This document shows positions 2,225 through 63,903 of a stretch of DNA of 64,000 nucleotides, piece after piece; the first letter of the stretch is position 1; each line of letters starts with the position of its first letter. The position numbers and the translations under genes are program-made. Origin of the DNA: Eledone cirrhosa. Its lineage: Eukaryota. Below the pieces are notes generated by a model that was not told the DNA's origin, did no database searches, and saw only the letters and a list, made by a program, of their open reading frames with translations. The DNA is taken from assembly GCA_964016885.1 (NCBI GenBank), contig OZ024742.1, forward strand, positions 229,028,001 through 229,092,000. Reading direction: 5' to 3'.

Positions 2225-2299
<75 letters not shown>

Positions 2300-2398
2300 T
2301 ATTGAAGTTTCCGTTGAAAATTGAAAAAGTCATACGAGTGAAGAGTGCTCTATGTAAGTACCACAGCTAAATTTAATGTATAATAAACAATACAATAT

Positions 2399-2475
2399 AA
2401 TTACCTCCTTACCAGAGGTTTCCCGAATAAGGCGAATACAAGCAACGTCCCCATTCGTTCATCGGACAAGGCAAT
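2399..2475 (-). ncRNA. type I hammerhead ribozyme, decayed (CCGATGA core)
   Basis: aattgccttgt-CCGATGA-a-cgaatgggg...ccttattcg-g-GAAA-cctctgg-TA-aggaggtaatt. Stems I-III pair; U4->C change in core. Confidence 0.6.
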
Positions 2476-3134
2476 TTAAAACATAGTGAAATATTTGAAA
2501 AATTTCCTCAAGAAAGGCAAAAGTTTAACGGGCAAAAAATATATAAATAAAAGTAATGCAATGCAAGAGATATATACAAATAAAATAAGGAAATATAGTT
2601 AGGGCATGTGTATAAATGTGTGTATATTCACTCACAAATGTACATATTTGTCTATGTACAAATGCATGTGTATAGTGAAAGAATGCGTGCGTAAGTACAT
2701 ATATGAGGGCAAGCATCTCAGTGTATGTGTGACCACAAATGCGTATATAATATATGTTGAAAAAGAATTGTAAGATAATAGAGTTAACGTATATCCAGAG
2801 TCAGGTATAAGGATTGAAATATATACACATAGAAGTATGAAAGCACGCGTATAAACACACACGCGCGCGCAACCACATACATTGGAGTGATATATACAGG
2901 GAAGGGAGTGTAACAGTCAAAGCAGTGTCAGTCTGAAGGTCGATACATATATAAAAATGAAAAATGAAAAAATATATGAGAATAAAAAAATTATAAAGTA
3001 ACACTAGAAAAATAGAAAACAAACATAGGTTCGTACGTACACACATATATATATAAATATATATATAAATACGTACAGACAAAAGCACATACATGCGTAC
3101 ATACATACAAAGGCGCGCATACATACACACGAAG

Positions 3135-3244
<110 letters not shown>

Positions 3245-3735
3245 CATATACATATACATATACACACACACACGTATATATAAGTATGTAAAAAACATAG
3301 ATATAGAAAAACACACATACACACACACATATACACATACACGCGCACATACGAATGCATTCGAATACATATACAAACACCCATACACGCACATGCACGC
3401 TCACACGCATAGATACAATATAAAAACCACCCGTATGAATAAATGAGTACAAACTATACGCAAGTAAACATACATAAAAGCGGCTGAGAGACAACAGAAT
3501 ATATCTGGAGTTGAAAACTCAAGTGACCAGTGGTATCAGGTAGTGAAAGAAAATGGGGAAGTAAAATATGTGAAATTGTGAAGATATAAAGTATGTGAAT
3601 AAAAAAGCAGGGGATGGGTGGGGTGGATGTCACTGGTGGATGTGAAGTAAAAATAAAGTTAAAAATAAAAATAAAAGTAAATCAGAAAGAGAAGTCTGTA
3701 AAGAGGGTAATTTAAGGAAAGTGAAGAACAAGAGT

Positions 3736-3906
3736 TTATGGAGGATAAGTATCCGAAAGTGAGTTAAGTTTACATGAGCTGGAAAGCAAGTGTGATTTCA
3801 TGTGTGGGCAACTGGTGAAAATTTCTGTTTTTGCATTTAGGCAGGTTTTTGGTGATTTAAGTTTCTGTAAAATCCAATATTCTTTACTTATGCAGAGTGC
3901 GCATCT
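3736..3906 (-). pseudogene. PLE GIY-YIG endonuclease C-terminal fragment
   Basis: 56-codon open frame ending TAA, with the CxLC...LN...E...CxH motif. Confidence 0.75.
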
Positions 3907-7119: not shown

Positions 7120-7162
7120 ACGATGTACTAGTTTCAAGCTTATTAGCTATCGTCAGCATCGT
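7120..7162 (-). ncRNA. minimal type I hammerhead ribozyme (inverted copy)
   Basis: Reverse complement of 7387-7429. Confidence 0.88.
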
Positions 7163-14959: not shown

Positions 14960-15175
14960 TGGTTTCTGATAAAGTACAAGGCCAGCAATTTGGGGGGAGG
15001 GGAAAGTCGATTAAATCGACCCCAGTGCGTGACTGATACTTTATTTTATCGACCCCGTAAGGATGTAAGACAAAGTTAACTTCAGCGGGATTTGAACTCA
15101 GATCATAAAGGGCCGTAACTCTGTGCTGCAATGCATGGTGTCCGATCCTTTAGTTATACTGTCAATCCACCACCC
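14960..15175 (-). mobile_element. tRNA-derived SINE (Nin/Deu-like core)
   Basis: Matches family consensus. Confidence 0.8.
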
Positions 15176-17710: not shown

Positions 17711-19640
17711 GTAATTAGAAACAACATTTTCCTAAATGTGTGGGGGAATACGGAGGAAGTAATCAAATGGTTCTCCACCATTAGTAACCATGGTGCCCTC
17801 AGGTTTGTCCAGTTCGATATAGATTCTTACTACACATCTATATCTCCTATCCTTATGAATAAGGCCCTCATCATGGCCATGCAGAATAGTGATCTAACCA
17901 GATCCCAAGTTGATATAGTTTTAACCGCACGTAAAACCTTAATCTTATTTTAGGAACAATTGTGGACTAGGAAAAACACTAACAACAACTTTGATATCAC
18001 AATGGGATCTGCAGACTCTGCCCAGGTAACTGATTTGTTCGGACTTTACCTAATCCATGAGCTTCATAAGACACTTCCTTACCTTTTCGGTGGGTTATAC
18101 CGCGACGATGCCCTCCTTACCCTTGAGCATAAAAAATTAGTATTTAATGGTACACAGAAGGACCTACGCAAATTCTTTAAAAGTTATAACCTTAATATTA
18201 CTATTGATAAGAATAATAAAACTAAATTTCTTGGATGCAACACTAGATCTGGTAAATAAGACTTACACACCATATCATAAACCTAATGAGAGACTAACTT
18301 ATGTACATACTGGATTTAACCACCCTAAATCAGTACTGAATGTTATTGTTAAGGGAGTATCTAATAGGATCAGCCGTTTATCATGCGGTGAAGATATTTT
18401 CAATTCTAATGCGGATAACGAAGCATTAGCTAAGTCTAGATATAAGAATAAACTATTTTACGTATCTGCTAGCTTCCAATCTAACGTAGCTGGGCATAAT
18501 AATGTTATTACACACAGTATGTCTTTAAATTATAATTATAATGATAACAGTAATAGAACTCTAGATAGGACCCATGTAGTGATTAGCTCAGCCCAGCTTA
18601 GACTGAACGGCCCTAATATGCATCCTCCAAATACTTCTAATGGAACTAATCCATTACACTAATGGAAGTGCGGCGAAATTTGGAAAACACACTCATAGTA
18701 GAGTATTAGATAGGCATATTGACCAATATAATGCGAGAATTTCACGACCAGTATATGGTGAACTTGGTTCCGTATGCCTAGGGGAGAGTAATAACTCTGG
18801 TGGTAACCGGACTCTAGTGGGGAAAAATAGAAAAAGTAGAAGAAGAATGAACACCTTTTTCAACCCACCATACAACTCTGAGGTCTTAACTAATATTCCC
18901 CAAACATTCTTCTTAATCCTAGAAAAGAACTTGCCGCCGGCCAACAGATACCATAGTATATTCAATAAAAACACAATTAAATTATCGTACTCCACTACAC
19001 CTAACCTAGCTTACCACCTGGCACGTACTAATAATCAGAAAATTAGTGTAGGTTTTGAAGATATTAAATCTGTGAATAACTAACAGCAACCTAACACATT
19101 GGCTAATGCGGCACCGCCGATTGCTGACATCACATCTGATGAACACATTACAGGTCAAACGGGTTTGAACAATAGTCCATCCCAAGGTATGAATAACGAC
19201 ACATATCGTAATTGTAATTGTAGAAGGAGTAGAAATTGCCCTTTAAAAGGCAATTGTCTCACGAGGAATATTGTTTATGCATGTGATGTTGTAATAACAA
19301 CCTCCACTAAGACATATGTGGGTTCTACTTCTACAGCTTTTAAAACTAGATTTAACTCCGACAATTATACTTTTAGATATGATAGGCTTAAAAATGCTAC
19401 CTCCCTAGCTAAATATATTCACTCTTTAAAATATGATGGTATAGATTATACACTCAATTGGAGGTTGGTAACTAAATCTCCACCCTACCGCCCCCGAACA
19501 AAACTTGTAACCTCTGCCAGCTTGAGTCTCATACCATAGTTTACTCTAACTGTGAATTACTGAATAGGAAATCGGAGATTTTCTCATCTTGTATTCACAT
19601 GAAACTTAATTCATTTTACCACTATAAACCTATTACATAG
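17711..19640 (+). pseudogene. PLE reverse transcriptase / Zn-finger / GIY-YIG endonuclease, disrupted
   Basis: RT motifs [35 protein letters not shown] and NFLDATLDL...Y.PY.KP....YVH..NHP; linker FNPPYN...IFNKNTIKLSYS; CNCRRSRNCPLKGNC; IVY...YVGST...FK.R; TCNLC..E...LLNRKSEIFSSCIH. Several stops and frameshifts. Confidence 0.92.
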
Positions 19641-21505
19641 TTCTGCTGATGTATCACTCCCCCTTGTGCAGTACCGCTGCTTGACCCTATTGAATTCATA
19701 GGGTATATATTGGTGTAGTCTACTGTGGTGTGGGATTGAATGTTTGGGGTGGTGTAATGCAGTGTGCCTCTGGTGTATTGTAGTGTGGTGTGGTGGGAGG
19801 TGGGGTAGTGCGGTGTTTGGTGGGGTAGGTTTATGGGGTGGGATTGGGTGAGGTTACTGAACTTATAATTTTTCTCTTTATATTCTTTTCTCTTTATTTT
19901 GGTCATAGTCTGATTTAATTACCTATTAGGTGAATAATCAGAGTTATCCCCCTTTCGTTTACAACATGTGTACACGTCATTTCTTTGACAACTAAAACGT
20001 CACCAAAGGATGTGCACAGAGTTTAGTGGCGCTAATTAAAATAAAATGTTCTGAGCCAGTATTAATTTATTTTAATCTTAGTGGTATGTAGACTGTATTT
20101 GTATTTTTATCTTTATTTTTGTATCTATTCCATTTAATCTCTGATTATATACTTGAATTTGACCATATTTAGCAAACATGCTAAGGTATTTAGCGTATTT
20201 AACAACTTGTGCACGAATGTTGATTTCCTTTTGTTTTGTTTAGACTTGTTCGCTATGCTGATCGCAGTTGCTGTGGCCAGAAATTCTATTCACATGTTCG
20301 TGACAGGATGGTGTGTGCAGACTTGGCTTGAAATAATTCTTGAACAATTTTTAATGTTGACCTCTGATTTGTTACATGGAGTGGTTGTTTATTGTAGTAA
20401 TCCAGCATGCATTTTCTTGGGTTATAATGTAATTGTTACGCTTAATATACTACTACGTATATTTAACCCGTGAGGATATGTAAAATATGTAAACAATTAG
20501 TCCTGCTTGTATTGTTTATTATGCATGAATAATAACTGCCAATTACTTTATAACAACTTTTATAACAACTAATATAATGAGACTGCGTCAACTCTTTCGC
20601 ACACTAGCCTAAATCTGCTTGTGCATAGCTGCTTTTTATGCCTTGAATCTATTTACTTGTTTCACTCAGCAAAACCATATAATAACTATATTTACTTGTG
20701 AGGCATGTGCCTTTGTGATACCTTTCTATATACTTGTGAACACCAATTGGCTACCTAGTCTGTGTACCTTCTGATATACTTTGTGTATATATATTATGGT
20801 AGTCATTCGAATTACTGTGGTCTTTTGGGTTGTACCAAAAAGATCTCTTCACGCCTGTATATAGACTACTGAGATCCTACTCCTTCGTGTTGCTAGGAAC
20901 TGTGCTTTCTCTAAGTGCTCATAACATATAACTTTTTCTCAATTTATTAAATATTTCTAATCTTTTTTAATTTAGTTTTATCATATTATTATATTATTTT
21001 ATTATCATTTATTATTATTTTAATATACTTTTATATTACTTTATTGTATTTAATTTATTTTTAGTATTTTTTATTTAATTATTTTACTTTATTTTATTTT
21101 ATTTTATTTTATTTTACTTTATTTCATTTCATTTTATTATCTTTATTATTATTTTTATCTTTATTTTTATATTTTTTATTACTTTAATATAATTTATATT
21201 ATGTTTTAACATTTGCCTGTATTTCTTTATGTATGTTTTATATATTTTTTAATGTATTTTTTATGTATTTTATGTATTTATTATGTACTTTTTAATGCTT
21301 TCACACTTTTTCATTTTACTTTCTGCATTTTTGAATGCCATCTACTGTGTCTTTATCTTGTTGAATCCAATTGTGTTTTGGTATTTTGCAGTTATGCTTA
21401 GTAACGCCAATATGAACCTCTTTCTTAGCGATCTCCAATTCCCCTATTATTTTTTCTGATTGTTTGTGTGACTAATTTTTGTGGAGCTTATACTCTACAC
21501 TGTAT

Positions 21506-23580: not shown

Positions 23581-23990
23581 TTAACGGTGCTGCAATAGAA
23601 TGTGGGTTTTTAGCCCAGCCAATGATCTAAAATGTCTTGGACAGAGTTGGCAATCTAAATATTCACTGGTAATAGCCGGCTGTGGTTGGAGTTCATGTAC
23701 TTTTGCATGTTGTTTGAGCCCTCCTACTGATTTACATTCTCTACCACATGTTTGGCAGGCATGATGAGTAGCATCCAACAGCAACCTGGTAGTCAACCAC
23801 AGGTTATGACTGCGAAGATGACTTTCGAGTGCAGCTTTGCTTAGGCAGAGTCTCGCACAGACGCTGCATGTCAGCACCATAGGAGGACCCTCGCCGTCTG
23901 GAAATGCAACAGCAATGCCCTTTCTCACATCCCTTTTTACTTTCTCGTATGCGATTCGAGATGCCTCAAAGGCAACTTTCCCCTCCTATA
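23581..23990 (-). pseudogene. RTE-type LINE ORF C-terminus with three C2H2 zinc fingers
   Basis: CSVCARLCLSKAALESHLRSH, CQTCGRECKSVGGLKQHAKVH, CQLCPRHFRSLAGLKTH. Similar finger and shared tail/UTR motifs at 32010-32620. Confidence 0.65.
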
Positions 23991-26762: not shown

Positions 26763-29275
26763 ATGTCTTTATAACAGTAATACAGATAGATAGACTTATA
26801 ACTATAAAAAAAATAAAACAATAGATCCACAAGAAAGACGGCTGCAAGCTGCTCGAGAAAGGGTGTGCAGTTATAGAGCTCGAATGAGACAGAAACAGCG
26901 AGAAGTAATAGAAAGAGAAAAAAGACGACACCAACAGAGACATGTCGAATTGAATGATGAACAGAGGAATATTGGTTTAGAGCAAGCTAGACTAAGTCAA
27001 CAGGAGAGAAGAAATAATATCCAATTAGAAGAACGTCAAGAATATTTAAAGTAAACTAAACTAAGGCAGCAGGAGAGAAGAGAGAATATGCTTCAAGATG
27101 AACGTCAATAATATTTAGAGAAACAAAGTATCAGATAACAAAAAAAGAAGAGATAATATGCAATAAGATGAGTGTGAAGAATATTTGGAGCATGATAGAC
27201 TAAGACAAGAAAAAAGGAGAGATCCTATTCATAAGAATGAACGAGCATATTTTCTCGGGTAGCAGAGAAAGGCACTTAGACGTAGAATAGAAAACATGAA
27301 TGCTGAACAACTGCATAATTTCAGATATAGTAGAATGTATAATGAGCGTCTAAGGAGAAATGGCCCAGCAATTAATATTAACGGTGACGTAGAAGTTAGT
27401 ATTGGTTATATGAATGTGTTGTGCAATCATTGTGGAGCGTTGAAAGTTAGAAATGAAAGTTACAACTGCTGTAATAAAGGAAACGTTGTGCTGCCTCCAT
27501 TCTAAATACCCACTGAGAGACTGAAAACTATCTTTGGAGGAGAAGGCCGAGAAACAGTTGCATTTCGCAGGAACATCTGCAATTACAACTGTGCATTTTC
27601 TTTCGTTTCGTTTGGTGTTAAACTTACATTGCTACCTGACAGAGGCATGTATTGCTTTCGCACTCAGTGCCAAATATATCACACCTCTGTACCCTGCAGA
27701 AAATACACCATAATATGGCCAGTTATATATTATTGACACAAATGAAGCAGTGCAACACAGATTGGAAGCACCGCCAAATATTGCATGCTCACCGCAAACA
27801 ATGATAAATGAGGTGTTGAATGAATGTAATCCATATATTTTGAAGTGTATAATAAAATGCATGCCCCCAAATAAGAAGAACAGCAAAGAGCACAAAGAGA
27901 AAATAGTCTCGTACAGAACTGTGAATTAAGATTTAGAAGATGATCAGATTTATCAACTATCAATGAAATATCTGCTGTTTTTGAGGGGGATAGATTGTGC
28001 ACCACCTGTACACAAAGATATTGTCATCTACCCTAAATACAATCCTCCTGAGATAACACCATATACTTAATGCCACTTGGCTCCTATGACCTATCCTTTA
28101 TTGTTTCCAATTTGGGTGGCATAGTGACATGTAACATGCAGAGGAATGCAGAACCCGCGCCCACAATAAACTGATAATGCAGGAGTATTACAGAGGAGGA
28201 TTTAGTGTGATACATAAGGCACGAAAAATATTTCAGCAGTATTTAGTGGATATCCATGAGAAAGCAGTGGGATGCAGGCTTCAAGCTTTGAGGGAAAATC
28301 AACCTCAATTACTAGTAGTTAAGAATAATGGTTTAATGGATTATCTAATCAGAGACGCAGAAGATAACATACATGTGCCAGTAACGTTGCCATCGTCCTT
28401 CACTGGCATTCCAAGAAACACGAATCAGTACTTTCAGGATGCTATGACAAATGTTGCAAAATATGGCAAGCCAGATCGTTTTATATCTTATACATAAAAC
28501 CCTAAATGCTCTGATATTCAAAATAGTCTAAATCAAAATGAGGCAGTGGAAATAGACCAGATTTAGTTGCCCAATATTTAAAGCTCAGCTTTCTGAAATT
28601 ATGAAAGAAAGTAAAAAATGACAAATTCTTGGCATGTCAGTGGCTCATGTTCACATCATTGAGTTTCAAAGAAGATGGCTTCTTCACTGCCATATGTTGG
28701 TCATTTTAAGGGACACTTCGAAACAGAGAAGACATTGACAGAATCGTGTTAGCAGAAATACCTACACTGGAAGACGAAAAGTTTATGATCCATGGGTCAT
28801 TTGGTTCTGAAAATCCTTTTCCATACATGCGAAATGTATATTAAAGTGCTTGGACCGGTTAGCGTCTACACTGCTGCCGAGAGGTAGAACTATGCACAAT
28901 TTATTTAAATGATATCTTCCACTAACAGAGACCAGTGTATATAATGTATCTGGCTCATCTGGCCATGCTAATTACTTACTGAACCTGGATCTCATAATAC
29001 TGAACGAGGCGTCTATGATTCCTTCCTATGCAATTCATGTCATTTACCTTCAAGTCGTCACTGGTGCCATTGAAATGTTTGGAAGAAAGGTTTCGCTTCT
29101 GGGAGGTGGCGTGAGGCAAGTGCTGGCAATATTAACAAGGGGTACCCATGAAGCCACATTAGAAATATTCCTTAAAAGCTCACATCTGTGGCACTTCTTT
29201 CAACGTATCAGAATGAGAGAAGATCTGAGAGGAGAGAGTGAGAGAGAGAGAGGGGGGGAGAGAGGGGGAGAGAGA

Positions 29276-29341
<66 letters not shown>

Positions 29342-30168
29342 GAAGTGACTAGTACATCTTGGCAATGGAACAAACACTTCGAATTGAAAACTGAATATGA
29401 ATGATGTTGAATTGATTCTATTCTCATGTGTAAATGACTTTTAGTGAAAGAAACTGTCAGCGTAACAGAGGAATAAAAGAAAATAACGGGTGTAAGTTTA
29501 TCTCCCTAGAATGCTGATTGCCTATTGATTAACGAAGATGTTCCCAGACAACTACCCGGTAACAGTCATACTTATTATAGTACAGATACAGTGATCGCTG
29601 ATGAACCTTCAGAGGCTGACAGATTTTCTACTGAATTTCTGAACTCGCTCAAAACTTCCGGGATGCCGCCTCAGAAACTCAATAATAATTCTTCTACGGA
29701 ATATTTCAATTCAGAACGGATTATGCATTGACATAAGATTAGCAAGAGTAGGGTTTCATCAACATTCCATCGATGCTTTTCATATCAATGGTCCTTTGAT
29801 GGGCAGGCGTGTTTTGATCTCAAGACTGCAATTAGACCCAAGTGATCCTAACATCCTATTTGTCTTTGGAAAGAGCCCAGTTTCCAGTAAGACTGTCCTT
29901 TGCTATAACAATCAACAAGAGCTAGGCTCATACATACAATAAAGTAGGTCGGTTTCTTCCTAAGCCAGTATATAGCCATGGACAATTGTTTATTGCTTTT
30001 TCAAGAGTACGCGGAGAGTCTGATGTAAAAATTAAAGTATTGAATGCTGATAAACAAGGGAGGCAATGTAATAAAACCGTGACAAAGAACATCGATATTA
30101 AGATAAATCTGAGCCCAGTTAAAGAGTTGCAAGTTGCAATGGTATTGAAACTAATCACGTACACATAA
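26763..30168 (+). pseudogene. Helitron RepHel (coiled coil, Zn finger, HUH Rep, Pif1 helicase), decayed and internally deleted
   Basis: IGYMNVLCNHCGA...CCNKG.V.LP; FQQYLVD; LPSSFTG.PR...Q.FQDAM..V.KYGKPD.F; HIIEFQRRWLLHCH (Rep motif 2, ~28652-28693); FG.KV.LLGG..RQ.L; EFLNSL..SGMPP; QFPVRLSFAITINKS; HGQLFIAFSRV. Confidence 0.9.
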
Positions 30169-36685: not shown

Positions 36686-37715
36686 GACTAGAAATATTTC
36701 AGTATACTAGTGCCGGACTAGAAATATTTCAGTATACTAATGCCAGGCTAGAAATCTTTCAGTATACTAGTGCCGTACTAAAAACTTCCAGTATACTAGT
36801 GCTGGACTAGAAATATTTCAGTATAATAATGCCAGGCTAGAAATCTTTCAGTATAATAATGCCAGGCTAGAAATCTTTCAGTACAATAATGCTAGGCTAG
36901 AAATCTTTCAGTATAATAATGCCAGACTAGAAATCTTTCAGTATAATAATGCCAGGCTAGAAATCTTCCAGTATAATAATGCCAGACTAGAAATCTTTCA
37001 GTATAATAATGCCAGGCTAGAAATCTTTCAGTATACTAATGCCAGGCTAGAAATCTTTCAGTATACTATTTCAGTATATTAATGCCAGGCTAAAAATCTT
37101 TCAGTATACTATTTCAGTATACTAATGACAGGCTAGAAATCTTTCAGTATACTAATGCCAGGCTAGAAATCTTTCAGTATACTATCTCAGTATACTAATG
37201 CCAGGCTAGAAATCTTTCAGTATACTAATGCCAGACAAGAAATCTTTCAGTATACTAATGCCGGCTAGAAATCTTTCAGTATACTAATGCCAGGCTAGAA
37301 ATCTTTCAGTATACTAATGCCAGACAAGAAATCTTTCAGTATACTAATGCCAGGCTAGAAATCTTTCAGTATAATAATGCCAGGCTAGAAATCTTTCAGT
37401 ATACTAATGCCAGGCTAGAAATCTTTCAGTATACTATTTCAGTATACTAATGCCAGGCTAGAAATCTTTCATTATAATAATGCCAGGCTAGAAATCTTTC
37501 AGTATACTAATCCCAGGCTAGAAATCTTTCAGTATACTTGTGCCGTACTAAAAACTTCCAGTATACTAGTGCTGGGCTAGAAACTTTCAGATTACTTGTG
37601 CTGGACTAGAAATCTTTCAGTAAACTAGTGTCAGATTAAAAGTATTTCAGTATACTTGTGCCAGACTAGAAATATTTCAGTATATTAGCGCCGGATTAGA
37701 AACATTTCAGTATGT
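36686..37715. repeat. 30-bp minisatellite (~33 units)
   Basis: Unit 'ctagaaatctttcagtatactaatgccagg'; edge units more diverged; occasional 12-nt 'tttcagtatacta' duplications. Confidence 0.95.
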
Positions 37716-37879
37716 TATTCTTGTATCTTTAGAAAGTCCAAATTTCTTGAAAGTAGCGTTTGTTTTTCATTCCTACAATATTGAAAAACCAATTACGACC
37801 TAAATCGATTTGATCGATCAAATGTTATTCCTCTACAAATCATTTGCCGATGTTTATTTCAGTGGACTAAAGTAGTCAC

Positions 37880-43184: not shown

Positions 43185-43701
43185 GATCCCGTCGAGGTTG
43201 ACTTTGCCTTTCATCCTTACGGGGTCGATAAAATAAAGTACCAGTAATGCACTAGATATTTGCTGGCCTTGTGCCTAAAGTAGAAACAATTATAAATAAT
43301 AGGTGCGATATAATAAGGGGGTGCCTTGGCAGTATCGGTAGAGGGTCGGACGCCATGCTTTGCAACATAGAGTTACGCTCGTTTACGGTCTGAGTTCAAA
43401 TCCCGCCGAGGTAAACATTGCCTTTCATCCTCACGGGGTCGATAAAATAAAGTACCAGTAATGTACTGAGGTAATTGCAGTCCTTGTACCTATAGTAGAA
43501 ACAATTATAAAGGCGGTGGATTACCTGTATCAGTAGAGGGTCGGACGCCATGCATTGCAGCATGGAGCTACGGCCCTTTCCGGTCTGAGTTCAAATCCCG
43601 CCGAGATTAACTTTGCCTTTCATCCTCACGGGGTCGATAAAATAAAGTACCAGTAATGTACTGAAATAATTGCTCGCCTTGTGACAAAAGTACAAACAAT
43701 T
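43185..43701 (+). mobile_element. three tandem SINE copies (43185-43291, 43317-43506, 43511-43701)
   Basis: Head-to-tail repeats of family consensus. Confidence 0.85.
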
Positions 43702-43941
43702 ATAAATAATAGTTGAGAAAACCGACGGAAACGGAAACATTGTGGACAGAGGCATTCTCGGCGACTTGAACACCGCATATCTCCGATACAGGGCGAGTGC
43801 GTTAAGATCTATACTAAGGAGCCGCTAGCTCTTAGAAGATTTTTAGCCTGTAGCCAAAATTGTCAACAACGCCGTTGACTTAGGAATCTTTGGGAAAATT
43901 TTAAATTTGAAGTGTGTGCGTCTCAACCCAAATGTCCATAA

Positions 43942-44130
43942 TAATTGTTTCTACTTTAGGGACAAGGCCAGCAATTACGCAGTGCATTACTGGTACTTTA
44001 TTTTATCGACCCCATAAGGATGAAAGGCAAAGTCAACCTCGACGGGATTTGATCTCAGATCGTAAAGGGACGTAACTATGCTGGAAAGCATGGCGTCCGA
44101 CCCTCTACCGATACTGCCAATCCACCGCCC
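43942..44130 (-). mobile_element. tRNA-derived SINE, full length
   Basis: Matches family consensus. Confidence 0.85.
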
Positions 44131-44502
44131 TGCGTAGTAGTTCACTATAGAAGATAGTTGAGAAAATCGGATAAATTCCACTCGAAGAGTACAACAAGGG
44201 ATAGCAGTCTGTTACATAGTTAACCCACAATTTCAGTTGGTATTTATTTTCAGCTAAATGAAGTGAAACTATGTGAAATGAAGTCTCTCTTGCTCAAGAA
44301 AACAATGCGCTGTCAAATCCGTATACTGACAATCATGAGGCCTGAAATCCGAATGCCGTATGCATTCATTTTTAAACAGTTTAATAAATATAAAGTAAGC
44401 TTGGCCTGTGTATTGTGAGAAAAGAATAGTTCTGAGGAATATAAGATTTTATAATCTAAAATGTTAAAACTTCGTTGAGAGCCATCTAACATACATAAAA
44501 TT

Positions 44503-44845: not shown

Positions 44846-45841
44846 ATAACATGCATATAAAACAACAAAAACGATACCAGGATGTACTTTGCACTACTGC
44901 CCAGTTTTATATTATTTACCAAACTGGATAATGTGATATTAGAAATGATTAGAAATCATTAAAGCGTCAAACAAATGCCTTAAAGTATTTCTTCCGACTC
45001 TTTACAGTATCAGTTCAAATCCCATTGCGGGCACCTTTGTCTTTCGTTCTTCCGCGGTCGATAAAGTAAAGTACCAGTACTGGTGTCAATTTAATCGACC
45101 CCATCTTCCAAATAGTTGGGCTAATTAAAAACAAAATGGACCAATAACTCCCCACCGTAAGTGACAAGCGGCGATGCTTGGGCATTTTTTAAAGTTGCAG
45201 AACCCATTCTTCTCCAGGTCTGCATCCAGCCAACTTCTTCTAAGAGAGAGCTAGATAGATAGATAGAGAGATGGAGAAGGGAGAGAGATGGGGGAAATAG
45301 AGAAAGATAGAGAACCGACCTTAAAAGACTGAACTGCAAAGTGGACTTCGGTGAGATTTAAACTCAGACTGCTCAGATCCTTCTATCCTACATTATAATA
45401 ACTTTATAAATTCGCTGACTTCTCCCAACTATATAGATTGATAAACTTTCTTTATAATATACTCAACCCATTGACATGGGTAAGTGAGATTTAATTTGTG
45501 GTTATAATGTAATAATAATGACTGGAAAAGAACATTTAACACTCTGCTTAATAGACTATCAATTATTATCTTTGCCAGTTAATCAGTTAATAAAATTTAA
45601 ACTATTATCATTAGAAGCTACTGGGTGGTTGATTTGCTGAATCGATACATTACCGAGTGTAATGCCTCAGGGTATAGGTTTCAGAGTTCAAAGTCAGCCG
45701 AAGTCAACTTTTCTTTCCATCCTTTTGAGATCAATAAAGTAAAGTATCAGACAAGTACTGAACTCGATATAATCGACTTTATTCTCTCTAGAAGATTGCT
45801 GGCTTTGTGCCTAAATTAGTAAATATTATTTGAAGTAACTA

Positions 45842-46031
45842 GGGCGGTGGATTGGCAGTATTGGTAGAGGGTTGGATGCCATGCTTTGCAGCGTAGAGTT
45901 ATGACCCTTTATGGTCTGAGTTCAAATCGCGCCGAGGTTAACTTTGCCTTTCATCGTTACGGGGTCGATAAAATAAAGTACCAGTAATGCACTGGGATAA
46001 TTGCTGGCCTTGTGCCTAAAGTAGAAACAAT
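45842..46031 (+). mobile_element. tRNA-derived SINE, full length, TSD 'attatttgaagtaactag'
   Basis: Family consensus flanked by the direct repeat at ~45825-45842 and ~46030-46047. Confidence 0.88.
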
Positions 46032-46677
46032 TATTTGAAGTAACTAGAAGTTGGTGGATTGGAGGTCAGACAAAATATCGTGTTCTTAAGGTTTCTGAGT
46101 TTGATACATTAAATACCATTCAAGTAGTGGATCGATTTAATCTAAACCTACCCTGCGCTCCAGCAAATTGTTGACCCACATGCCTAAATTTGAAACTAAT
46201 ATATATCACGGCGATTTATTTTATCGATGCCAGAAAAAGCAAATTCTATCCCGGCGATATTTTAACTCGAGCCAGATATAGCAAGAACGCACACTCTGCG
46301 AAATATTCATTCTAAATATGCTTTACATTCACACACGATTTCCAAAGTAAATTCATGTCTGTTCTCAAGTATTGTAGCAACCTACGATAATAATACTTAT
46401 TCTAAATATACAACACGCCATTCTTGAGTCATCAGAAACCACCTGACACAGAAGGAAGTATAATTATATAATATTATTTCAATTCTTAACCATTTTACTC
46501 TCCATTAACCTGTGATCTTTCCTGGAATATTTAATATTATATCAGCTGCCCTTTATACAACATCTTATAGTTATATTAACGGAGTTCAAAATATTCTCTA
46601 ATAAATATAATATAATATAATATAATATAATATATATAATATATAACACACACACGCATATATATATATATATATAA

Positions 46678-51889: not shown

Positions 51890-52660
51890 ATGTATATATA
51901 TACATACATGCACACATATATATATGTACTCATGGACGGTGCTGCTCGATAGCTAGTAAGCTTGAAACTAGTGCATCGTTCCTTTGTCAGTGTTGAACAA
52001 ATGGGCAACGATGGTTGCTAAACACTGTACGGCTTGGTTCGGGATGTTTGTTTACAAACACACCGAGCATTGTGATAAATGTTCGATGAGTCCATGCGTA
52101 CATATATATATATATATGTGTGCATGTATGTATATATATACATACTACTGTACGTCTGTATACATATATGTATGTACGTATACATACTTATATTTAAGTA
52201 ACAACCGTACTAAGAGTGAGAAATGAAATTCGTTTCATTTTTACCGTTTATCGTTTTCGGTGCGCCCGGCCGATTAACTCACTCAATATGCAAATTAGGC
52301 TGCTCAGCCGTTAATATGCATAAGGAAAATATATACTTTCAGACGTTCAATCATCTGGCAGGAAGGTATACGGTGCTGACGATAGCTAATAAGCTTGAAA
52401 CTAGTACATCGTTCCTTTGTCAGTGTTGAACAAAAGGGCAACGATGGTGTTAAACACTGTACGGCTTGGTTCGGGATGTTTGTTTACAAACACACCGAGC
52501 ATTGTGATAAATGTTCGGTGAATCCATGCGTACATATATATATGTGTGCATGTATGTATATATATACATACTACTGTACGTTTGTATACATATATATATG
52601 TACGTAAACATTCTTATATTTAAGTAACAGCCGTACTAAGATTCGTTTCATGTTTCCGTT
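51890..52660 (+). mobile_element. family H5 tandem copy (~433-nt period) with HHR at 52370-52412
   Basis: Two head-to-tail units; acggtg-CTGACGA-tagctaataagctt-GAAA-ctag-TA-catcgt. Confidence 0.85.
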
Positions 52661-52714
<54 letters not shown>

Positions 52715-52724
52715 AAAATGTATG

Positions 52725-52823
52725 ACCCCGACGGCAGAGCTCAAGCCGTTTCGACGGCTATTTCTGGACTAAAGTAAGAGATTTTCTAGTCTGGTAAATA
52801 AATAGCCGAACTTTTCAAGGGGT
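52725..52823 (-). ncRNA. type I HHR with U3-A8 variant core (family H2)
   Basis: acccc-TTGAAAA-g-tt-cggctattt...aaatagccg-t-c-GAAA-cggc-ttgagctct-gccg-TC-ggggt. Confidence 0.75.
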
Positions 52824-52932
52824 ACTTCCTTATATCGGAAGATTGAAGTTGTCAAGATGATTGCTCAAAATTTGTCTGCTACGAATTTTGACCAATCCTC
52901 TTGACAACTACAATCTTCCCATATAAGGAAGT

Positions 52933-53032
52933 ACCCCTTGAAAAATTCGGCTATTTATTTACCAGACTAAAAAAAACTCTTACTTTAGTCCAGAAATAGC
53001 CGTTGAAACGGCTTGGACTCTGCCGTCGGGGT
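52933..53032 (+). ncRNA. type I HHR with U3-A8 variant core (inverted copy)
   Basis: acccc-TTGAAAA-a-ttcggctattt...aaatagccg-tt-GAAA-cggc...gccg-TC-ggggt. Confidence 0.72.
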
Positions 53033-53164
53033 CATACTTTCTCATATATATATATATATATATATATAACGAAGGAAATGTGGTAAGGAACCAGGTGGAC
53101 CATAACGCACCAAAGTACTCAATACTTAGGGTAGTAGAGTGGGTATATATATATAAACATATAT

Positions 53165-53237
<73 letters not shown>

Positions 53238-53334
53238 AAGGTTAAACAAGGTTCAATGAATAAGTCAATGAATAAAGTTTTACAATAAATTAGAAGCACT
53301 CCAGAGAAATGGTTTTCCGGAGTTATTAATATTA

Positions 53335-53657
53335 ATTCAAAATATTAACAAATATAGACATTCGTGTCATCAAGTATATTTTATTATACATATTTCAGAG
53401 GTACTGAGCTATTTACAACAGTACGTCCTCATCAGATAAAATAAGATGATGCTTGACATACCTTGACTATGTTGATGGTTAAAATTCAGTCATGCCATGA
53501 CTGAATTTTAACCATCAACATAGTCAAGGTATGTCAAGCATCATCTTATTTTATCTGATGAGGACGTACTGTTGTAAATAGCTCAGTACCTCTGAAATAT
53601 GTATAATAAAATATACTTGATGACACGAATGTCTATATTTGTTAATATTTTGAATTT
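53335..53657. mobile_element. near-perfect ~160-bp-arm palindrome carrying two HHRs
   Basis: Centre ~53495. HHR at 53548-53612 (+): attttat-CTGATGA-gga-c-gtactg...cagtac-c-tct-GAAA-tatgta-TA-ataaaat; mirror at 53378-53442 (-). Confidence 0.85.
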
Positions 53658-53814
53658 ATATATATATATAAATGAGATCAATTGTACAGTTGTTGTTCTA
53701 TGGTATCAATTTGACATACCAGAACTATAAAATTGAGATAAGCGGAGCAGGTAAGATTCAAACAATTTTTTAAAATAAATTAAAAAAATAATTTAAATAT
53801 TTACCTATTCCATT

Positions 53815-53896
53815 TGCTTTTACCGACGGTTTCGCCTCACAAAAGATTGGAAGTCCGATGGACCTCCAATAGAAATGTTCGGTTCTTCAGAAAGCA
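53815..53896 (-). ncRNA. type I HHR (family H6 relative)
   Basis: tgcttt-CTGAAGA-acc...ggc-GAAA-ccgtcgg-TA-aaagca. Stem I differs from the 8184 copy but still pairs. Confidence 0.75.
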
Positions 53897-53924
53897 TTTA
53901 TCTCAATGTTATATATATATATAC

Positions 53925-54503
53925 GTGTAAATGAAGTAATTCCGCGGAAAGGTACAGGGAAAAAGAGTGCTCCATGTAGTCTACAGAGCTTATTAGTTAT
54001 GTAATAAACAAAATAAGATAATTATTTCATTTACCAGTGGTTTCTTGAAAGGCAGATACTATATCTGTTTTCAGTCGTCAGAATGAATAAAAAAACATTT
54101 GTCATTGGTATCAGCACAGAATTGTCCATCTCATTCTTTTAATGACTTGTTCAATTTTATCAATAAGCATTTTAGTGTATGTTGTGTAGGAGTAAGTTTA
54201 TTTTTGATAGAATAATCCAATTCATAAACGTCCATGATGTATGTTGGTTAATTTCCTGAAACTGTAAAGTGCTCAACTCATCGGGCTGGAAAGTGCCAAT
54301 CATATATGTAATATAGAATATGCTTCGATCATTCCCGGTTGGAGCTGTATAAATGAAGTAATTCCGTCGGAAAGGTACAGGAAAAAAGAGTGCTCTATGT
54401 AGGCTACAGAGCTTATTCTGACAACTGAAAAGAGATATAATATCTGCTTTTCAAGAAACCACTGTTAAATGAAATAATTACCTTATGTTGGTTATTACAT
54501 AAT
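53925..54503 (-). mobile_element. family H7: ~422-nt terminally redundant monomer plus inverted segment
   Basis: 'atgaagtaattccg..ggaaaggtacagg...gagtgctc..tgtag.ctacagagcttatt' at 53931 and 54353. HHR at 54026-54087 (-); decayed inverted HHR at 54416-54473 (+). Confidence 0.8.
54026..54087 (-). ncRNA. type I hammerhead ribozyme
   Basis: ttcatt-CTGACGA-c-tgaaa-a-cagata-tag-tatctg-cc-tttca-a-GAAA-ccactgg-TA-aatgaa. Confidence 0.8.
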
Positions 54504-54538
54504 TATATATATATATATTAATCTGTTATTTTAATAAA

Positions 54539-58130: not shown

Positions 58131-58214
58131 TATTTAATTTCAAAATTATTTTGAAATCACAGGCAGAGTCTTCCAATAAATTTGATGACAATGAAAGGGA
58201 CATTGATGACAATG

Positions 58215-59062
58215 AATCATATTATAAGGTATCTATTTTTGAAGTTCTAGTCAACTTTATTTAGTTACCTACCTAGCTATGTGTGCTTACACACTTGTAA
58301 AAATTATCCCCTGTGATTGTTTCATATGTTTATTTATATGCTAATCAATTTCTAGTTGTTATAAAATGCTCGGACCTATTCATTAGAATCTTGGAGCTTA
58401 TTTTACGGGTGATATGGCGCATGCCTTTCTGGCATGACACCCATAATTTTGATTTCGATTAAATTCACTTTGATTTATCTTAATTTTGGATATATATATA
58501 TAAATACGGCTCCTTAATTGTAGAGCTAACTCTCTTGAAAGGACTTGACTGCTGTTTCTAGTTGTCGAGAACCCTATTCACGCCACTGGGACGAAGCTGG
58601 TATGATGTGTGTATTTTTAGTAGATACAGCACGTGTTACTGGCCAGTCGCTGATTTGAACTTAATGCGTAAACACAGATGGCTGGACTTCTTCCTTGTTG
58701 AAAATCCAAGTATCGGCCTCCGTGGTTTACCATTCGATTAATTGGTGAAATATATTTCTTTAATGGAATATATACAGGGAAGATTAATCATATTATAAGG
58801 TATCTATTTTTGAAGTTCTAGTTAACTTTATTTAGTTACCTACCTAGCTATGTGTGCTTACACACTTGTAAAAATTATCCCCTATGATTGTTTCATATGT
58901 TTATTTATATGCTAATCAATTTCTAGTTGTTATAAAATGCTCGGACCTATTCATTAGAAACTTGGAGCTTATTTTACGGGTGATATGGCATATGCCTTTC
59001 TGGCATGACACCCATAATTTTGATTTAGATTAACTTCACTTTGATTTGTCTTAATTTTGGAT
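58215..59062 (+). mobile_element. family H8 tandem element (~571-nt period)
   Basis: ~275-bp direct repeat at 58215 and 58786, each ending 'cttaattttgga(TA)n'. HHR at 58689-58783; third copy at 63570-63903. Confidence 0.85.
58689..58783 (+). ncRNA. type I HHR with U3-A8 variant core (family H8)
   Basis: tcttccttg-TTGAAAA-t-ccaa..atcg...cgat..ttgg-t-GAAA-tatattt...gaatata-TA-cagggaaga. 9-bp stem I, 8-bp stem III. Confidence 0.8.
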
Positions 59063-59082
59063 ATATATATATATAGTAATAA

Positions 59083-59270
59083 TAATTGTTTCTACTTTAG
59101 GCACAAGGCCAGCAATTACTCAGTACATTACTGGTACTTTATTTTATCGACCCCGTAAGGATGAAAGGCAAAATTAACCTCAGCGGGATTTGAACTCAAA
59201 CCGTAAAGGGACGTAACTATGCCAGAAAGCATGGCGTCCAACCCTCTACCGATACTGCCAATTCACCGCC
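59083..59270 (-). mobile_element. tRNA-derived SINE, full length
   Basis: Family consensus; flanking 'atatatagtaataataat' direct repeat. Confidence 0.85.
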
Positions 59271-59637
59271 TCCATATATAGTAATAATAATAAATTGGAG
59301 ACTAAATTCCAAAGAGGGCTCGATAAGGATAAATATATATCAAATATATAAGAACCGTAGAGCAAATATTTATTAAAATAACAGATTAAAGTTTAAGCAA
59401 AGAATCGTTGCTTTCACCCTTAGCGGGATCTTCTGAAACTAACAAAGTCAATCTGTAAACGCAGAAGTGAATATTTCAAAAAACGTTGCAGCCGGAGGAA
59501 GACAGGAAGACGATACTTTGGTTCGTGGAAACGTTCCCTGGCATATATATATGTAGGAGGTGAGTTTTATTGTAGCACAATAAAGCAATGCAAATATCGG
59601 ATAAGTAGCACTCTACAGTTTGTAGGACTGGAGTATA

Positions 59638-60059: not shown

Positions 60060-60602
60060 TGTATGTATGTATACTTACATACATATATGTATAGAGACGC
60101 ACAGTAGTATGTATATACATACATACATGCACACATACATATATGCACGTATCGGTTTACCGAACATTTATTATAATGCTCGGTTTGTTTGTTTGTAAAC
60201 AAACAAACAGCCCGAATTACCCGTACAGTGTTTAGGCAACCACGTCACCTTTTTGTTCAACACTGACACAGGAACGGTGTACTAGTTTCAAGCTTATAAG
60301 CTATGGTCAGCATCGTATACCTTACTGCCAGATGGCTGAACGTCTGAAAGTATATACTTTCCCTACGCACACCAACGGCTGAGCAGCCCAATTTGCATAT
60401 CGAGTGAGTTCAGTCGGCTGTTTGTTTGGGCTGTTTGTTTGTTTACAAACAAACAAACTGAGCATTATAATAAATGTTCGGTAAACCGTACGTGCATATA
60501 TGTATGTGTGCATTATGTATTTACATACTACTGTGCGTCTGTATACATATATGTATGTACGTATACATACTTACATTTATAAATATATATATATATTCAT
60601 AA

Positions 60603-60758: not shown

Positions 60759-62110
60759 GTGTGTGTGTGCGTGTGCGTGTGTGTGTGTTTGCCTTTCATC
60801 TTTTAGGGGTTGATAAAGAAAGTACCACCACATTGCTGGTGCAGACTTTTCTTCCTCTAGCTGTCACATCTTAGAAATTTCAATTATTAGATCGAGTATC
60901 GAGAGGGTGTATGCGATTGCATAGGCACGTATAACACTAATCGAAACATGATATATACTACCATATATATAGACGGCTGTCTTTATATATATATAAGCAC
61001 TAGCAATACAATAGCTTGGATTCAATCAAATATGGCTTTCTTCGAAAATATTGGACTTTTGTTAAGAAATCAATAGATTTGAGAATAAGGTTTGCAGGTG
61101 TATTGTTCACAATACGTTATAATATTGATCATTATTTCAACTAAATGTCAGTTATTGTAATTTAAAGAACAGCTGAGATATAAACGTTTATGTGTCAATA
61201 ATAACGTAACTTCTATGAAAATTTATTGACTGTTCAATTGTTAATAGATAATAAAAATAGAAAAAATCTTGTAACGAAAGTTTCATAATCCAAACTTCGT
61301 CGCACTCCAGTACGTGGGCGAGGCAGCAAATTGGCAGAATCGTTTGAACACCGGATGTAATACTTTGCGTTATTCGTTCCCTCTCTCTGAGTTCAATTCC
61401 CGCCGAGGACACCTTTGTCTTTTATCGTTTCGCGGTTGATAAAAAACGTCCCAATCCAGTACTGGGTAGATTCTTCCCCTATATCTCTTTCTCTCCATCT
61501 TTCTCGCGTTCTCTGGAAAAGATGGTTTTGACCTGTGTTCCACCAGGTTTAAATAATGTTTTGCATTTACGGATCCATACATGCATACAAGATAGATCTA
61601 TGTTCGGGATCCGAGGTTTCGACGACGAATGTTCAAGTTGTTTGATTAGTGGAATAGCCTGCTCGGGAAATTTACTAGACACATCTAGTTCCCGGTCATA
61701 TTCAGTTGAGGCAACTTGCTTTTGAAATAAACCAGCAAGTGGCTCAACATTCCACGGACACGTGCTCATTTAAGCTAATTCTCAGGGTGATTCAGCGTGA
61801 CATAATATGTGTCAACACAGGAGATTTGAATGACAAGTAAAACTCATTTTTTCTTCAGCTGAGTGGACCAGATTAACGCGTACGGCTCAAGGTCACAACG
61901 TTCCACCGGTTTGAGAATCGAACTCATGATCGTGCGACCATGACCCAAACAATCCTAACAATGAAGCCTTCAATGACATTCTAATATGTGCCAGATACAA
62001 AACGAATCAAAAACTTAGGAAAGAAATTGTTTATTTTATATATATTTTCAAGAAACCAGAAAAAAGAGTAAGCGAATATAAAATGTATATTACAATATAT
62101 ATATATATAT

Positions 62111-62785
62111 CGGGAATTTTATATTCTCCAAGTGAAAAGAACCTTCTGACGAGAGTTTATATTTTCAATGGACGCCCGCAAGGACTATCTATTTATTTTT
62201 GAGACTCGAAGCCGTTTCGGTAAAGGTAACCATAGTAAGTACAATGAATTTTTTGAAATTTATTTTGAAACTTTTTCTTATTTGCTAAACCTTGATTATA
62301 TATGTTCTGGCTCGTTAATTTATTAACCTGCCATTGAACCACATTGGCATATGGTTGGATAATACATGTGTCCCTATACGTTTTTTGCGTGTAGGAATAT
62401 ATATTTTATTATTATTAATCTCCCCCTTGTCGAGATAAAACTTGATCGTTTTGACTACTGCTATTTTTAGTGATAGTAGATTGACCTCCCTGCCTCTGCT
62501 TCTATCTTTGCACACGGCACTGGACAGAATTGCTTTCACATCATTCATTCTCATCTCGGGAACAATTTTGAATAGAGCCAGTTCGTAATTCGAACTCGGG
62601 AATTTTATATTCTCCGAGTGAAAAGAACCTTCTGACGAGAGTTTATATTTTCAATGGACGCCCGCAAGGACTATCCATTTATTTTTGAGACTCGAAACCG
62701 TTTCGGTAAAGGTAACCATAGTAAGTACAGGGAATTTTTTGAAATTTATTTTGAAACTTTTTCTTATTTGCTAAACCTTGATTAT
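62111..62785 (+). mobile_element. family H3: ~1.4 tandem monomers, 486-nt period, HHR in each repeat
   Basis: ~190-bp direct repeat (62111 and 62597); predicted cleavage after 62222 and 62708; flanked by (TA)n. Confidence 0.9.
62627..62713 (+). ncRNA. type I hammerhead ribozyme
   Basis: acctt-CTGACGA-gagttt...agactc-GAAA-ccgtttcgg-TA-aaggt. The upstream copy at 62141-62227 has GAAG instead of GAAA. Confidence 0.9.
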
Positions 62786-62807
62786 ATATATATAAATATA
62801 TATATAT

Positions 62808-63100
62808 GGTTATACTTGGGGAGGGTCCTATTTCTGTAATATTGCCAGAATTAATAACAGAACACACTCACTGTTTGGTTGGTTTTCGCTTTTCGCTTCT
62901 GTGTCTTTTATATCGGTAATCTAATTTATTCGGTCCTCAATGTTGCCATTGACTGACCAACGGTCAAAAATACAGATAAAATATAGACACAAACACATAT
63001 ATATATTCTCTCAAAGTTCTTTCGTTGCACATCTGCAACATCGTCAGTGGTGCTATTGTTTCCTTCCGTTGCATTGTATTTTCTACGCCATCTTTATTTA
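62808..63100 (-). mobile_element. family H1 copy with HHR core (63012-63049)
   Basis: Nearly identical to 107-298. Minus strand reads ca-CTGACGA-t-gttgca-gatg-tgcaac-GAAA-gaac-TT-tg. Confidence 0.75.
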
Positions 63101-63569: not shown

Positions 63570-63900
63570 AATCGATTAATTGGTGAAATATATTTCTTTA
63601 ATGGAATATATACGAGGGAGATTAATCAAATTATAAGGTATCTATTTTTGAAGTTCTAGTTAAACTTTATTTAGTTACCTACCTAGCTATGTGTGCTTAC
63701 ACACTTTTACAAATTATCCCCTGCGATTGTTTCATATGTTTAATTATATGTCAATTAATTTCTAGTTGATATAAAATGCTCGGATCTGCTCATTAGAATC
63801 TTGGAGCATATTTTACGGGTGATATGGCGCATGTCTATCTGGCATGACACTCGTAATTTAATTTGATTTAATTTAATTTAATTCAAATTATCTTAATTTT

Positions 63901-63903
<3 letters not shown>
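63570..63903 (+). mobile_element. family H8 copy, 5'-truncated within HHR stem II
   Basis: Begins at 'tcgattaattggtGAAA' and matches 58734-59062. Confidence 0.85.

What the first reader, a model, noticed from the sequence alone, without database searches (positions are those of the whole stretch)
53925..54503. H7 (422-nt monomer) shares its 3' end with the coding PLE at 2.3-3.9 kb
Seen: on the minus strand both have GAAAcc.ctggTA followed by a similar downstream segment (plus strand 'aagagtgctc.atgta...taataaacaa.a.a.ataatta' at 2341-2403 and 53963-54024). The 2.3-kb copy continues into a GIY-YIG ORF, whereas this copy wraps round to its own end after 422 nt. Inference: a direct link between an autonomous PLE 3' end and a short non-coding derivative, suggesting how these elements originate.
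Basis: partly seen in the sequence, partly recalled or inferred. Interest (0 to 1): 0.7.

Follow-up and report, generated by a model that had tools for sequence, protein, structure and literature searches.

The report
Internally deleted Hydra retrotransposon, shared hairpin
This short ribozyme-bearing repeat is a Penelope-like retrotransposon that has lost the middle of its gene, and what it shares with the longer copy nearby is mainly a small RNA hairpin that sits next to the point where these elements appear to start copying themselves.

Summary
The shared 3' end is real: 72% over 100 nt, and outside the hammerhead 0 of 20,000 shuffles score as well. Both labels need correcting. The 2.3-3.9 kb copy is not autonomous: it keeps only the last 56 codons of a Hydra-clade GIY-YIG domain. 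H7 is not non-coding by origin: its unique part holds a 111-nt leader and the first ~41 codons of a Hydra ORF (E 1e-7, best of 2043 frames), joined almost directly to the hammerhead. With an inverted arm and (TA)n flanks, H7 is an internally deleted Hydra PLE. The two copies are sister families, not parent and child: compensatory ribozyme changes separate them. The similarity centres on a bulged hairpin that recurs, with covariation, in other hammerhead families of the window and, by eye, in 4 of 6 published Hydra consensi. Tail-less element ends stop just 5' of it. A PLE origin for retrozymes is already in print; I found no description of this hairpin. Whether H7 is a mobile family or a one-off deletion could not be tested.

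The parts
54415..54505 (+). Inverted, 5'-truncated pLTR arm of H7 (hammerhead plus spacer, no tail); core reads CTGACAA and stem III is mutated; outer end joins (TA)n; 3-nt AAT microhomology at the inner junction
   Evidence: (82 of 91 identical to 54084-53994)
54347..54417 (-). Upstream copy of the ~70-nt tail, with bulged hairpin at 54412-54392
54236..54346 (-). 111-nt 5' leader; opens with a candidate second GCUC...GAGC-ACU closing stem (54345-54268) 1-2 nt after the point where the tail ends
   Evidence: (z -1.4, not significant); not found by the covariance model
54111..54235 (-). Remnant of the first ~41 codons of a Hydra-clade ORF, ATG at 54235, one frameshift near 54180, RMRW motif ending at 54126, stop at 54113-54111
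54092..54125 (-). Interval holding the internal-deletion junction (ORF start joined to the 3' end); exact breakpoint not determinable without the parent
   Evidence: inference
54022..54091 (-). Type I hammerhead: intact CUGACGA core (54081), one unpaired base each side of stem II, palindromic stem III with 1-nt loop, predicted cut after 54032
   Evidence: geometry as in Hydra hammerheads of PMC8557442 File S2; no Rfam hit
53925..54021 (-). Spacer, bulged hairpin (53989-53969, 42 nt after the cut site) and tail; 3' end joins (TA)n
3736..3906 (-). Last 56 codons of a Hydra-type GIY-YIG domain (CxxC..E..N..CxH); 5'-truncated at (TA)n
2480..3735 (-). 1,256-nt T-rich, microsatellite-laden 3' UTR with no other hammerhead motif; an internal (TA)n run near 3140-3240 leaves some doubt that it is one insertion
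2297..2479 (-). Decayed hammerhead (core CCGAUGA at 2465, mismatches in stems I and III), spacer, hairpin at 2367-2347 (42 nt after the cut site, one G-G mismatch) and tail ending in (TA)n
17711..19637 (+). Context: separate decayed, 5'-truncated Hydra-clade RT-EN copy, used to fetch homologues

Best explanation
H7 is an internally deleted Hydra-clade Penelope-like element. It keeps the tail, leader, first ~41 codons, hammerhead and 3' end of an autonomous element, has lost nearly the whole RT-EN gene, and sits in (TA)n with the usual inverted, tail-less 5' arm (shown). The 2.3-3.9 kb copy is a 5'-truncated coding member of a sister family (fragment shown; sister status inferred from divergence and covariation). 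They look alike because Hydra 3' ends conserve the hammerhead plus a bulged hairpin, RYUC-helix-UW-GARY (recurrence shown). Most likely mechanism (inferred): the RT-EN protein, supplied in trans for H7, nicks (TA)n and primes at two sites on a more-than-unit RNA, one at the AU-rich stretch just 5' of the hairpin (giving tail-less ends and the inverted arm, as in twin priming) and one ~70 nt further 3' (giving the tailed end); the hairpin is the docking or boundary signal for the first site. I put 0.6 on H7 belonging to an amplified non-autonomous family and about 0.5 on the hairpin's role in positioning initiation.
For: ORF start: profile of 6 full-length homologues ranks the two H7 frames first and second of 2,043 (E 1e-7, 0.004); read through with X, 39.4 bits against at most 12.1 in 5,000 shuffles. 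RWK, CxCX5C and CxxC/CxH motifs, (TA)n targeting and canonical hammerheads define Hydra (PMC8557442 section 11). EN remnant: iE 2e-4, third of 2,043 frames. Inverted arm and one-sided tail match the published PLE layout. Compensatory changes between H7 and the 2.3-kb copy: stem II pairs 1 and 5 (U-A/C-G, A-U/U-A) and A-U/C-G in stem I. Hairpin: 17 pattern hits against 3.3 +/- 2.0 in 60 shuffles; on a sequence-only alignment of 12 copies RNAalifold returns the same 7 pairs, 5 with double changes, 96% of cells paired; 16 of 16 chosen tail-less arms end -14 to +1 nt from the hairpin start, 15 within -5 to +1; chosen by architecture alone, 7 of 18 asymmetric foldbacks begin their tail with the strict hairpin, against 64 of 20,000 random positions; two hits not used to write the pattern (50575, 59634) lie in the same architecture; seen by eye in Hydra-2_Amil, Hydra-1_Ajap, Hydra-2_Ajap and, with one mismatch, Hydra-1_Crog. 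Two internal start sites bounding the tail are shown in vitro for a Poseidon PLE (PMC11167929).
Against: H7 is single-copy in the window. The pattern was written after seeing examples, and the 12 aligned copies and 16 arm pairs were hand-picked, so those figures are inflated; the 7 of 18 are 5 families, mostly the same ones, and 11 of 18 foldbacks lack the strict hairpin. The strict pattern misses the 2.3-kb copy itself and family E. Single-sequence folds are not significant, and for H7 and the 2.3-kb copy the minimum-energy fold is not the bulged hairpin. No hairpin was seen in window family C or in 2 of 6 published consensi (Hydra-1_Amil, Hydra-1_Obim). Junction positions blur by several bases because of TA microhomology. 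The second stem is only suggestive. In Poseidon_Ac initiation is inside an AC-rich stem-loop, not beside one.
Confidence: 0.75

Rival explanations
1. H7 is a one-off: a single full-length Hydra insertion (inverted arm, tail, ORF, pLTR) that lost its interior during or after integration and never moved again. It then says nothing about how retrozyme families arise. This rival keeps the anatomy of the best explanation and differs only on mobility.
For: One copy in 64 kb. Its layout is that of a full-length insertion. Internally deleted Penelope copies flanked by inverted pLTRs are described in Adineta vaga (PMC3846280 passages). About 4% decay per copy can account for the frameshift.
Against: The deletion is close to the largest that spares all terminal signals (at most ~35 nt left between RMRW and stem I). 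Other short hammerhead elements in the window are multi-copy families.
Confidence: 0.35
2. One reading: H7 derives directly from the family of the 2.3-3.9 kb element, the difference being decay.
For: Among 10 window tails compared, the 2.3-kb copy is H7's closest (z 7.8; next 3.1), with the same 42-nt cut-to-hairpin spacing. The 2.3-kb copy is visibly decayed, which inflates the distance.
Against: About three compensatory double changes and a 6-nt longer stem II region cannot come from neutral decay. No similarity upstream of the ribozyme. The shared 14-mer also occurs in a sea-cucumber element. The two copies share no coding sequence that could be compared.
Confidence: 0.12
3. The hairpin is conserved for another reason (endonuclease recognition at the DNA level, promoter or RNA-processing signal), and tail-less ends sit beside it only because an AU-rich patch there anneals to the (TA)n primer.
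For: The tail was reported as needed for endonuclease recognition in Drosophila Penelope (cited in PMC11167929). TA-like sequence directly precedes the hairpin in most families. pLTRs hold promoters.
Against: G-U-tolerant, covarying pairs with a fixed 2-nt bulge point to an RNA structure. Ends cluster within ~6 nt although AU-rich patches are common along the spacer.
Confidence: 0.3
4. The similarity is chance between AT-rich sequences plus hammerhead core constraints.
For: Sub-segments are individually weak.
Against: 0 of 20,000 shuffles and top rank among 6,392 tiles; colinear to the 3' end; independent Hydra protein remnants in both copies.
Confidence: 0.02

Closest known systems
Hydra clade of Penelope-like elements (PMC8557442)
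   Same: RWK-type N-terminal motif, CxxC/CxH around the EN E and N residues, canonical hammerhead near the 3' end with unpaired bases flanking stem II, (TA)n targeting, inverted 5' copy and one-sided tail
   Different: H7 lacks RT and EN; tail ~70 nt rather than 30-40; the paper's main text has no hit for 'hairpin' or 'stem-loop'
Non-LTR retrozymes of animals (PMC7229834; bioRxiv 10.64898/2026.07.22.740005)
   Same: Short unit, type I hammerhead, similarity to PLE pLTRs, presumed PLE mobilisation
   Different: H7 is not a tandem array, has one intact hammerhead, is slightly above the 170-400 nt range of the first paper and keeps an ORF start. The preprint proposes birth from a terminal repeat and has no hit for 'deletion', 'deleted' or 'ORF'
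Internally deleted Penelope derivatives in Adineta vaga (PMC3846280)
   Same: Inverted pLTR flanks, internal deletion, optional tail
   Different: Other PLE clade; treated as disabled copies; no hit for 'hairpin'
R2 SIDEs, short internally deleted elements (review passage, PMC6765202)
   Same: Works like it: ribozyme-bearing retroelement that lost its ORF but kept both ends for trans-mobilisation
   Different: R2 is an rDNA-specific non-LTR element with an HDV-like 5' ribozyme; mobility of H7 is not shown
Non-autonomous Chlamys elements such as MRC1 (PMC8557442 passage)
   Same: Non-autonomous PLEs sharing 3'-end similarity with autonomous families
   Different: N-terminal-EN clade in algae, mostly without canonical hammerheads
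Poseidon_Ac internal initiation (PMC11167929)
   Same: Tail equals the distance between two RT start sites; AT-rich targets; a stem-loop is involved
   Different: [quoted passage not shown]

Membership tests
Hydra-clade PLE | RWK motif near the N-terminus | tested here: met
   H7 reads RMRW then T, not K; whole segment E 1e-7 against a profile of 6 homologues
Hydra-clade PLE | C-terminal GIY-YIG EN with CxxC and CxH flanking conserved E and N | tested here: met
   Met for the 2.3-3.9 kb copy; deleted in H7
Hydra-clade PLE | CxCX5C linker and absence of CCHH | tested here: inconclusive
   Region missing from both copies; CxCX5C is present in the 17.7-19.6 kb copy
Hydra-clade PLE | RT phylogeny placing it in the clade (DKT motif, divergent RT4) | not testable with these tools
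   Neither H7 nor the 2.3-3.9 kb copy retains RT
Hydra-clade PLE | Canonical hammerhead in the 3' pLTR | tested here: met
   Intact core and geometry in H7, mutated core in the 2.3-kb copy; no Rfam hit; cleavage not assayed
Hydra-clade PLE | Insertion into (TA)n; inverted 5' copy; tail at one end | tested here: met
Non-LTR retrozyme | Tandem repeat with at least two consecutive units each holding a complete hammerhead (criterion of the 2026 preprint) | tested here: not met
   One sense hammerhead; the second is inverted and mutated
Non-LTR retrozyme | Short unit with type I hammerhead and no protein product | tested here: met
   422-nt unit; only a broken 41-codon remnant
Non-LTR retrozyme | Multi-copy family | tested here: inconclusive
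   One copy in the window; no genome was available
Non-LTR retrozyme | Expressed as self-cleaving circular RNA | not testable with these tools
   No transcript data
SIDE-like non-autonomous element | Both ends of the parent kept, ORF interior lost | tested here: met
SIDE-like non-autonomous element | Mobilised in trans after the deletion | not testable with these tools
   Needs other copies with the same junction

The most novel reading that the evidence does not exclude
Hydra-clade PLEs and their non-autonomous passengers share an undescribed bulged RNA hairpin, conserved from coral and sea cucumber to this genome, that docks the telomerase-like RT and sets initiation immediately 5' of itself. 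Two such stems ~70 nt apart define the two start sites, hence the PLE tail and the tail-less inverted arm. H7 is an amplified, SIDE-like intermediate that shows retrozymes can arise by internal deletion of a PLE rather than from a lone terminal repeat.
Probability: 0.3. Interest if true: 0.7.

Novelty: new variant of a known kind. Interest (0 to 1): 0.48.

Why it matters
Two details add to it. First, an element that still carries the start of the PLE gene next to its hammerhead is direct anatomical evidence for an internal-deletion route to non-autonomous hammerhead elements. Second, the origin of the PLE tail and of inverted 5' arms is named as an open mechanistic problem (PMC8557442 section 15), and a short covarying hairpin at the tail boundary gives a specific cis-element to mutate in the existing in vitro assay. 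It could also serve as a search handle for assigning anonymous hammerhead repeats to their driver clade.

Tried and rejected
Rfam: no hammerhead family at either site; the whole-window list showed 150 of 244 weak matches, nearly all microRNA models on microsatellites or foldbacks. Word-seeded protein searches with the 56-aa remnant and the 101-aa EN piece found nothing; the full HMMER scan did. Pfam gave no informative family for the window fragments or the full-length homologues; the Atlas placed P0127 among unnamed ~700-aa clusters, some carrying GIY-YIG or RVT_1 on a minority of members (a lead only). Source names for the homologues could not be looked up, so their labels rest on motif match to PMC8557442. 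No ORF-start remnant in any other hammerhead family of the window. A 23-nt match between the 2.3-kb copy and 20507-20529 has no convincing hammerhead or hairpin around it; treated as chance or heavy decay. Searching the Craig supplement for 7-nt motifs returned mostly coding-sequence noise. In one search the core coordinate of the 2.3-kb copy was off by one; one search corrects it. Rejected: H7 as a tandem retrozyme array; the 2.3-3.9 kb copy as autonomous; H7 as a pure pLTR monomer. The host was not determined; 'octopus' in literature searches was a guess from recall. Genome-wide consensi were not built: no eukaryotic genome was available, and the metagenome and viral contig collections stayed unchecked.

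Full report
Observation. The similarity is there. BLAST within the window aligns 53963-54059 to 2341-2439 at 72% over 100 columns, E 1.4e-6. Leaving out the hammerhead, the downstream segments score 49; 0 of 20,000 dinucleotide shuffles reach that, and H7 is the best non-self tile of 6,392. From GAAA to the 3' end 85 of 114 aligned columns match. The 422-nt figure is the spacing of a 71-nt direct repeat. The match is weak piece by piece: spacer, hairpin and post-hairpin segments are reached by 164, 44 and 77 of 2,000 shuffles, spacer plus post-hairpin without the hairpin by 180 of 2,000, and only the colinear whole by 0 of 2,000. Upstream of the ribozyme nothing aligns (239 of 500).

The 2.3-3.9 kb copy. 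It is not an autonomous element. The frame at 3906-3739 holds 56 codons and starts at a (TA)n run. I fetched 150 homologues of the EN domain of a second decayed element at 17.7-19.6 kb and built a profile from the 113 that passed a length and motif filter; the remnant scores iE 2e-4, third of 2,043 stop-to-stop frames behind the two pieces of the seed element. Its CxxC..E..N..CxH pattern is listed for the Hydra clade (PMC8557442 section 11). A 1,256-nt T-rich stretch without another hammerhead motif links it to the ribozyme, so one 5'-truncated insertion is the simplest reading, though an internal (TA)n run leaves some doubt. Its hammerhead core is mutated.

H7. On the minus strand the order is: (TA)n, inverted hammerhead-plus-spacer arm (54505-54415; 82 of 91 identical to the sense copy), tail copy, 111-nt leader, ORF start, hammerhead, spacer, tail, (TA)n. 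An ATG at 54235 opens a frame that, across one frameshift near 54180, runs to RMRW and a stop at 54111. A profile of the N-termini of 6 full-length homologues ranks the two H7 frames first and second of 2,043 (E 1e-7 and 0.004; next 1.3); read through with X the segment scores 39.4 bits against at most 12.1 in 5,000 shuffles. Only 44 nt separate the W codon from the ribozyme core. H7 is therefore an internally deleted Hydra element. The inverted arm ends where the direct part begins in the sense sequence and joins it through a 3-nt microhomology; I infer twin priming, a mechanism I recall from L1 work (one search listed 3 papers holding both terms; none was read).

Relation between the two. 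H7's duplicated parts differ by about 8% (13 of 161 sites), whereas H7 and the 2.3-kb copy differ by about 25%. Stem II pairs 1 and 5 and at least one stem I pair differ on both sides and still pair, which means both ribozymes were under selection after the split. The 2.3-kb copy is still the closest of 10 window tails (z 7.8, next 3.1). Sister families fits; direct derivation does not.

What is shared. A pattern written after seeing examples finds 17 sites against 3.3 +/- 2.0 in 60 shuffles; it misses the 2.3-kb copy and family E, which each have a mismatch. Twelve hand-picked copies from about nine families align by sequence alone, RNAalifold returns the same 7 pairs, and 5 show double changes; selection inflates this. 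Two less circular checks: two hits I had not used (50575, 59634) lie in the same one-sided-tail foldback layout; and of 25 foldbacks found by BLAST, 18 are asymmetric and 7 of those 18 (5 families) begin their tail with the strict hairpin, against 64 of 20,000 random positions. For 16 chosen tail-less arms the match ends -14 to +1 nt from the hairpin start, 15 of them within -5 to +1. By eye, 4 of the 6 Hydra consensi in File S7 of PMC8557442 carry the hairpin: coral Hydra-2_Amil and sea-cucumber Hydra-2_Ajap about 43 and 38 nt after the cut, Hydra-1_Ajap at its very 5' start, and copepod Hydra-1_Crog with one mismatch; Hydra-1_Amil and Hydra-1_Obim do not show it. Against: single-sequence folds are not significant and for H7 prefer another structure, 11 of 18 foldbacks lack it, and I saw none in family C. 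In H7 the tailed end falls 1-2 nt before a second GCUC...GAGC closing stem, and Hydra-1_Ajap shows a second hairpin about 60 nt after the first by eye, but the H7 stem is not significant (z -1.4) and the covariance model does not find it.

Mechanism. Shown: anatomy, homology, recurrence and position of the hairpin. Inferred: priming from nicked (TA)n at two sites of a more-than-unit RNA, with the hairpin setting the upstream site. [quoted passage not shown] Whether H7 moved after the deletion is open: it is single in the window.

Prior knowledge. A PLE origin for animal retrozymes, with homology at pLTRs, is the thesis of bioRxiv 10.64898/2026.07.22.740005 (parts 1-3 of 5 read, abstract through discussion) and was proposed in PMC7229834 (passages). 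Non-autonomous PLEs sharing 3' ends and the inverted-arm-plus-tail layout are in PMC8557442 (abstract, passages, sections 11 and 15, supplement parts 2, 52, 53 and search hits). Internally deleted Penelope copies are in PMC3846280 (passages), SIDEs in PMC6765202 (passages), palindromic dimer-type hammerheads in PMC4209133 (passages). PMC11167929 was read in parts 1-2 of 4. I found no description of a conserved tail hairpin in Hydra elements in four searches or in term look-ups within four of these papers. The library lacks most subscription papers and Repbase notes. The preprint's supplements (its Table 6 lists retrozyme-PLE homologies) and the supplementary figures of PMC11167929 were not seen and could bear on both novelty claims.

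Verdict. H7 is a deleted Hydra PLE, which fits a known kind; the conserved tail hairpin at the inferred initiation boundary is the part that may be new and is directly testable. Interest 0.48.

Noticed in passing
window 52090-54505: At least six hammerhead-type or tail insertions lie back to back, several separated only by (TA)n: family C, a G-type foldback, a lone G tail, D, A and H7.
   Followed up: partly
window 53069-53145 (-): A tail-only insertion (hairpin plus ~50 nt of family G) flanked by (TA)n on both sides, as expected from a cDNA started at the downstream site and stopped at the hairpin.
   Followed up: partly
window 62110-62790 (+) and 1557-1974 (-): Family B: partial tandem with a ~470-nt unit, two hammerheads and the tail hairpin at 62304; closer to a textbook retrozyme than H7. 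An antisense 111-codon frame at 62650-62315 is broken in the other copy and gave no reliable Atlas match.
   Followed up: partly
window 17711-19637 (+): Decayed, 5'-truncated Hydra RT-EN copy with CxCX5C linker and an Asn-rich spacer between RT and EN; no clear hammerhead or hairpin found downstream.
   Followed up: partly
window 6987-7558, 51930-52540, 60095-60540: Family C: hammerhead elements with intact cores, several as foldbacks, in which I saw no tail hairpin of this type; possibly driven by another PLE clade.
   Followed up: no
window 58212-58489, 58783-59060, 63572-63902 (+): Three copies of a repeat ending in (TA)n with a weak GCUC...GAGC stem ~95 nt from the end and no hammerhead.
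   Followed up: no
window 102-495, 4145-4276, 62804-62998: Foldback repeat family flanked by (TA)n with no hammerhead or hairpin found.
   Followed up: no
window 10944-11112, 14976-15174, 43186-44131, 45680-46060, 59079-59289 and others: A dispersed family with about 20 copies of an ~80-200 nt core, SINE-like in behaviour; not examined.
   Followed up: no
window 36686-37719: Tandem minisatellite with a 30-nt unit in part.
   Followed up: no
window 23581-23985 (-) and 28135-29404 (+): Open frames with C2H2 zinc-finger-like text and Helitron helicase-like text (labels from recall, not tested).
   Followed up: no
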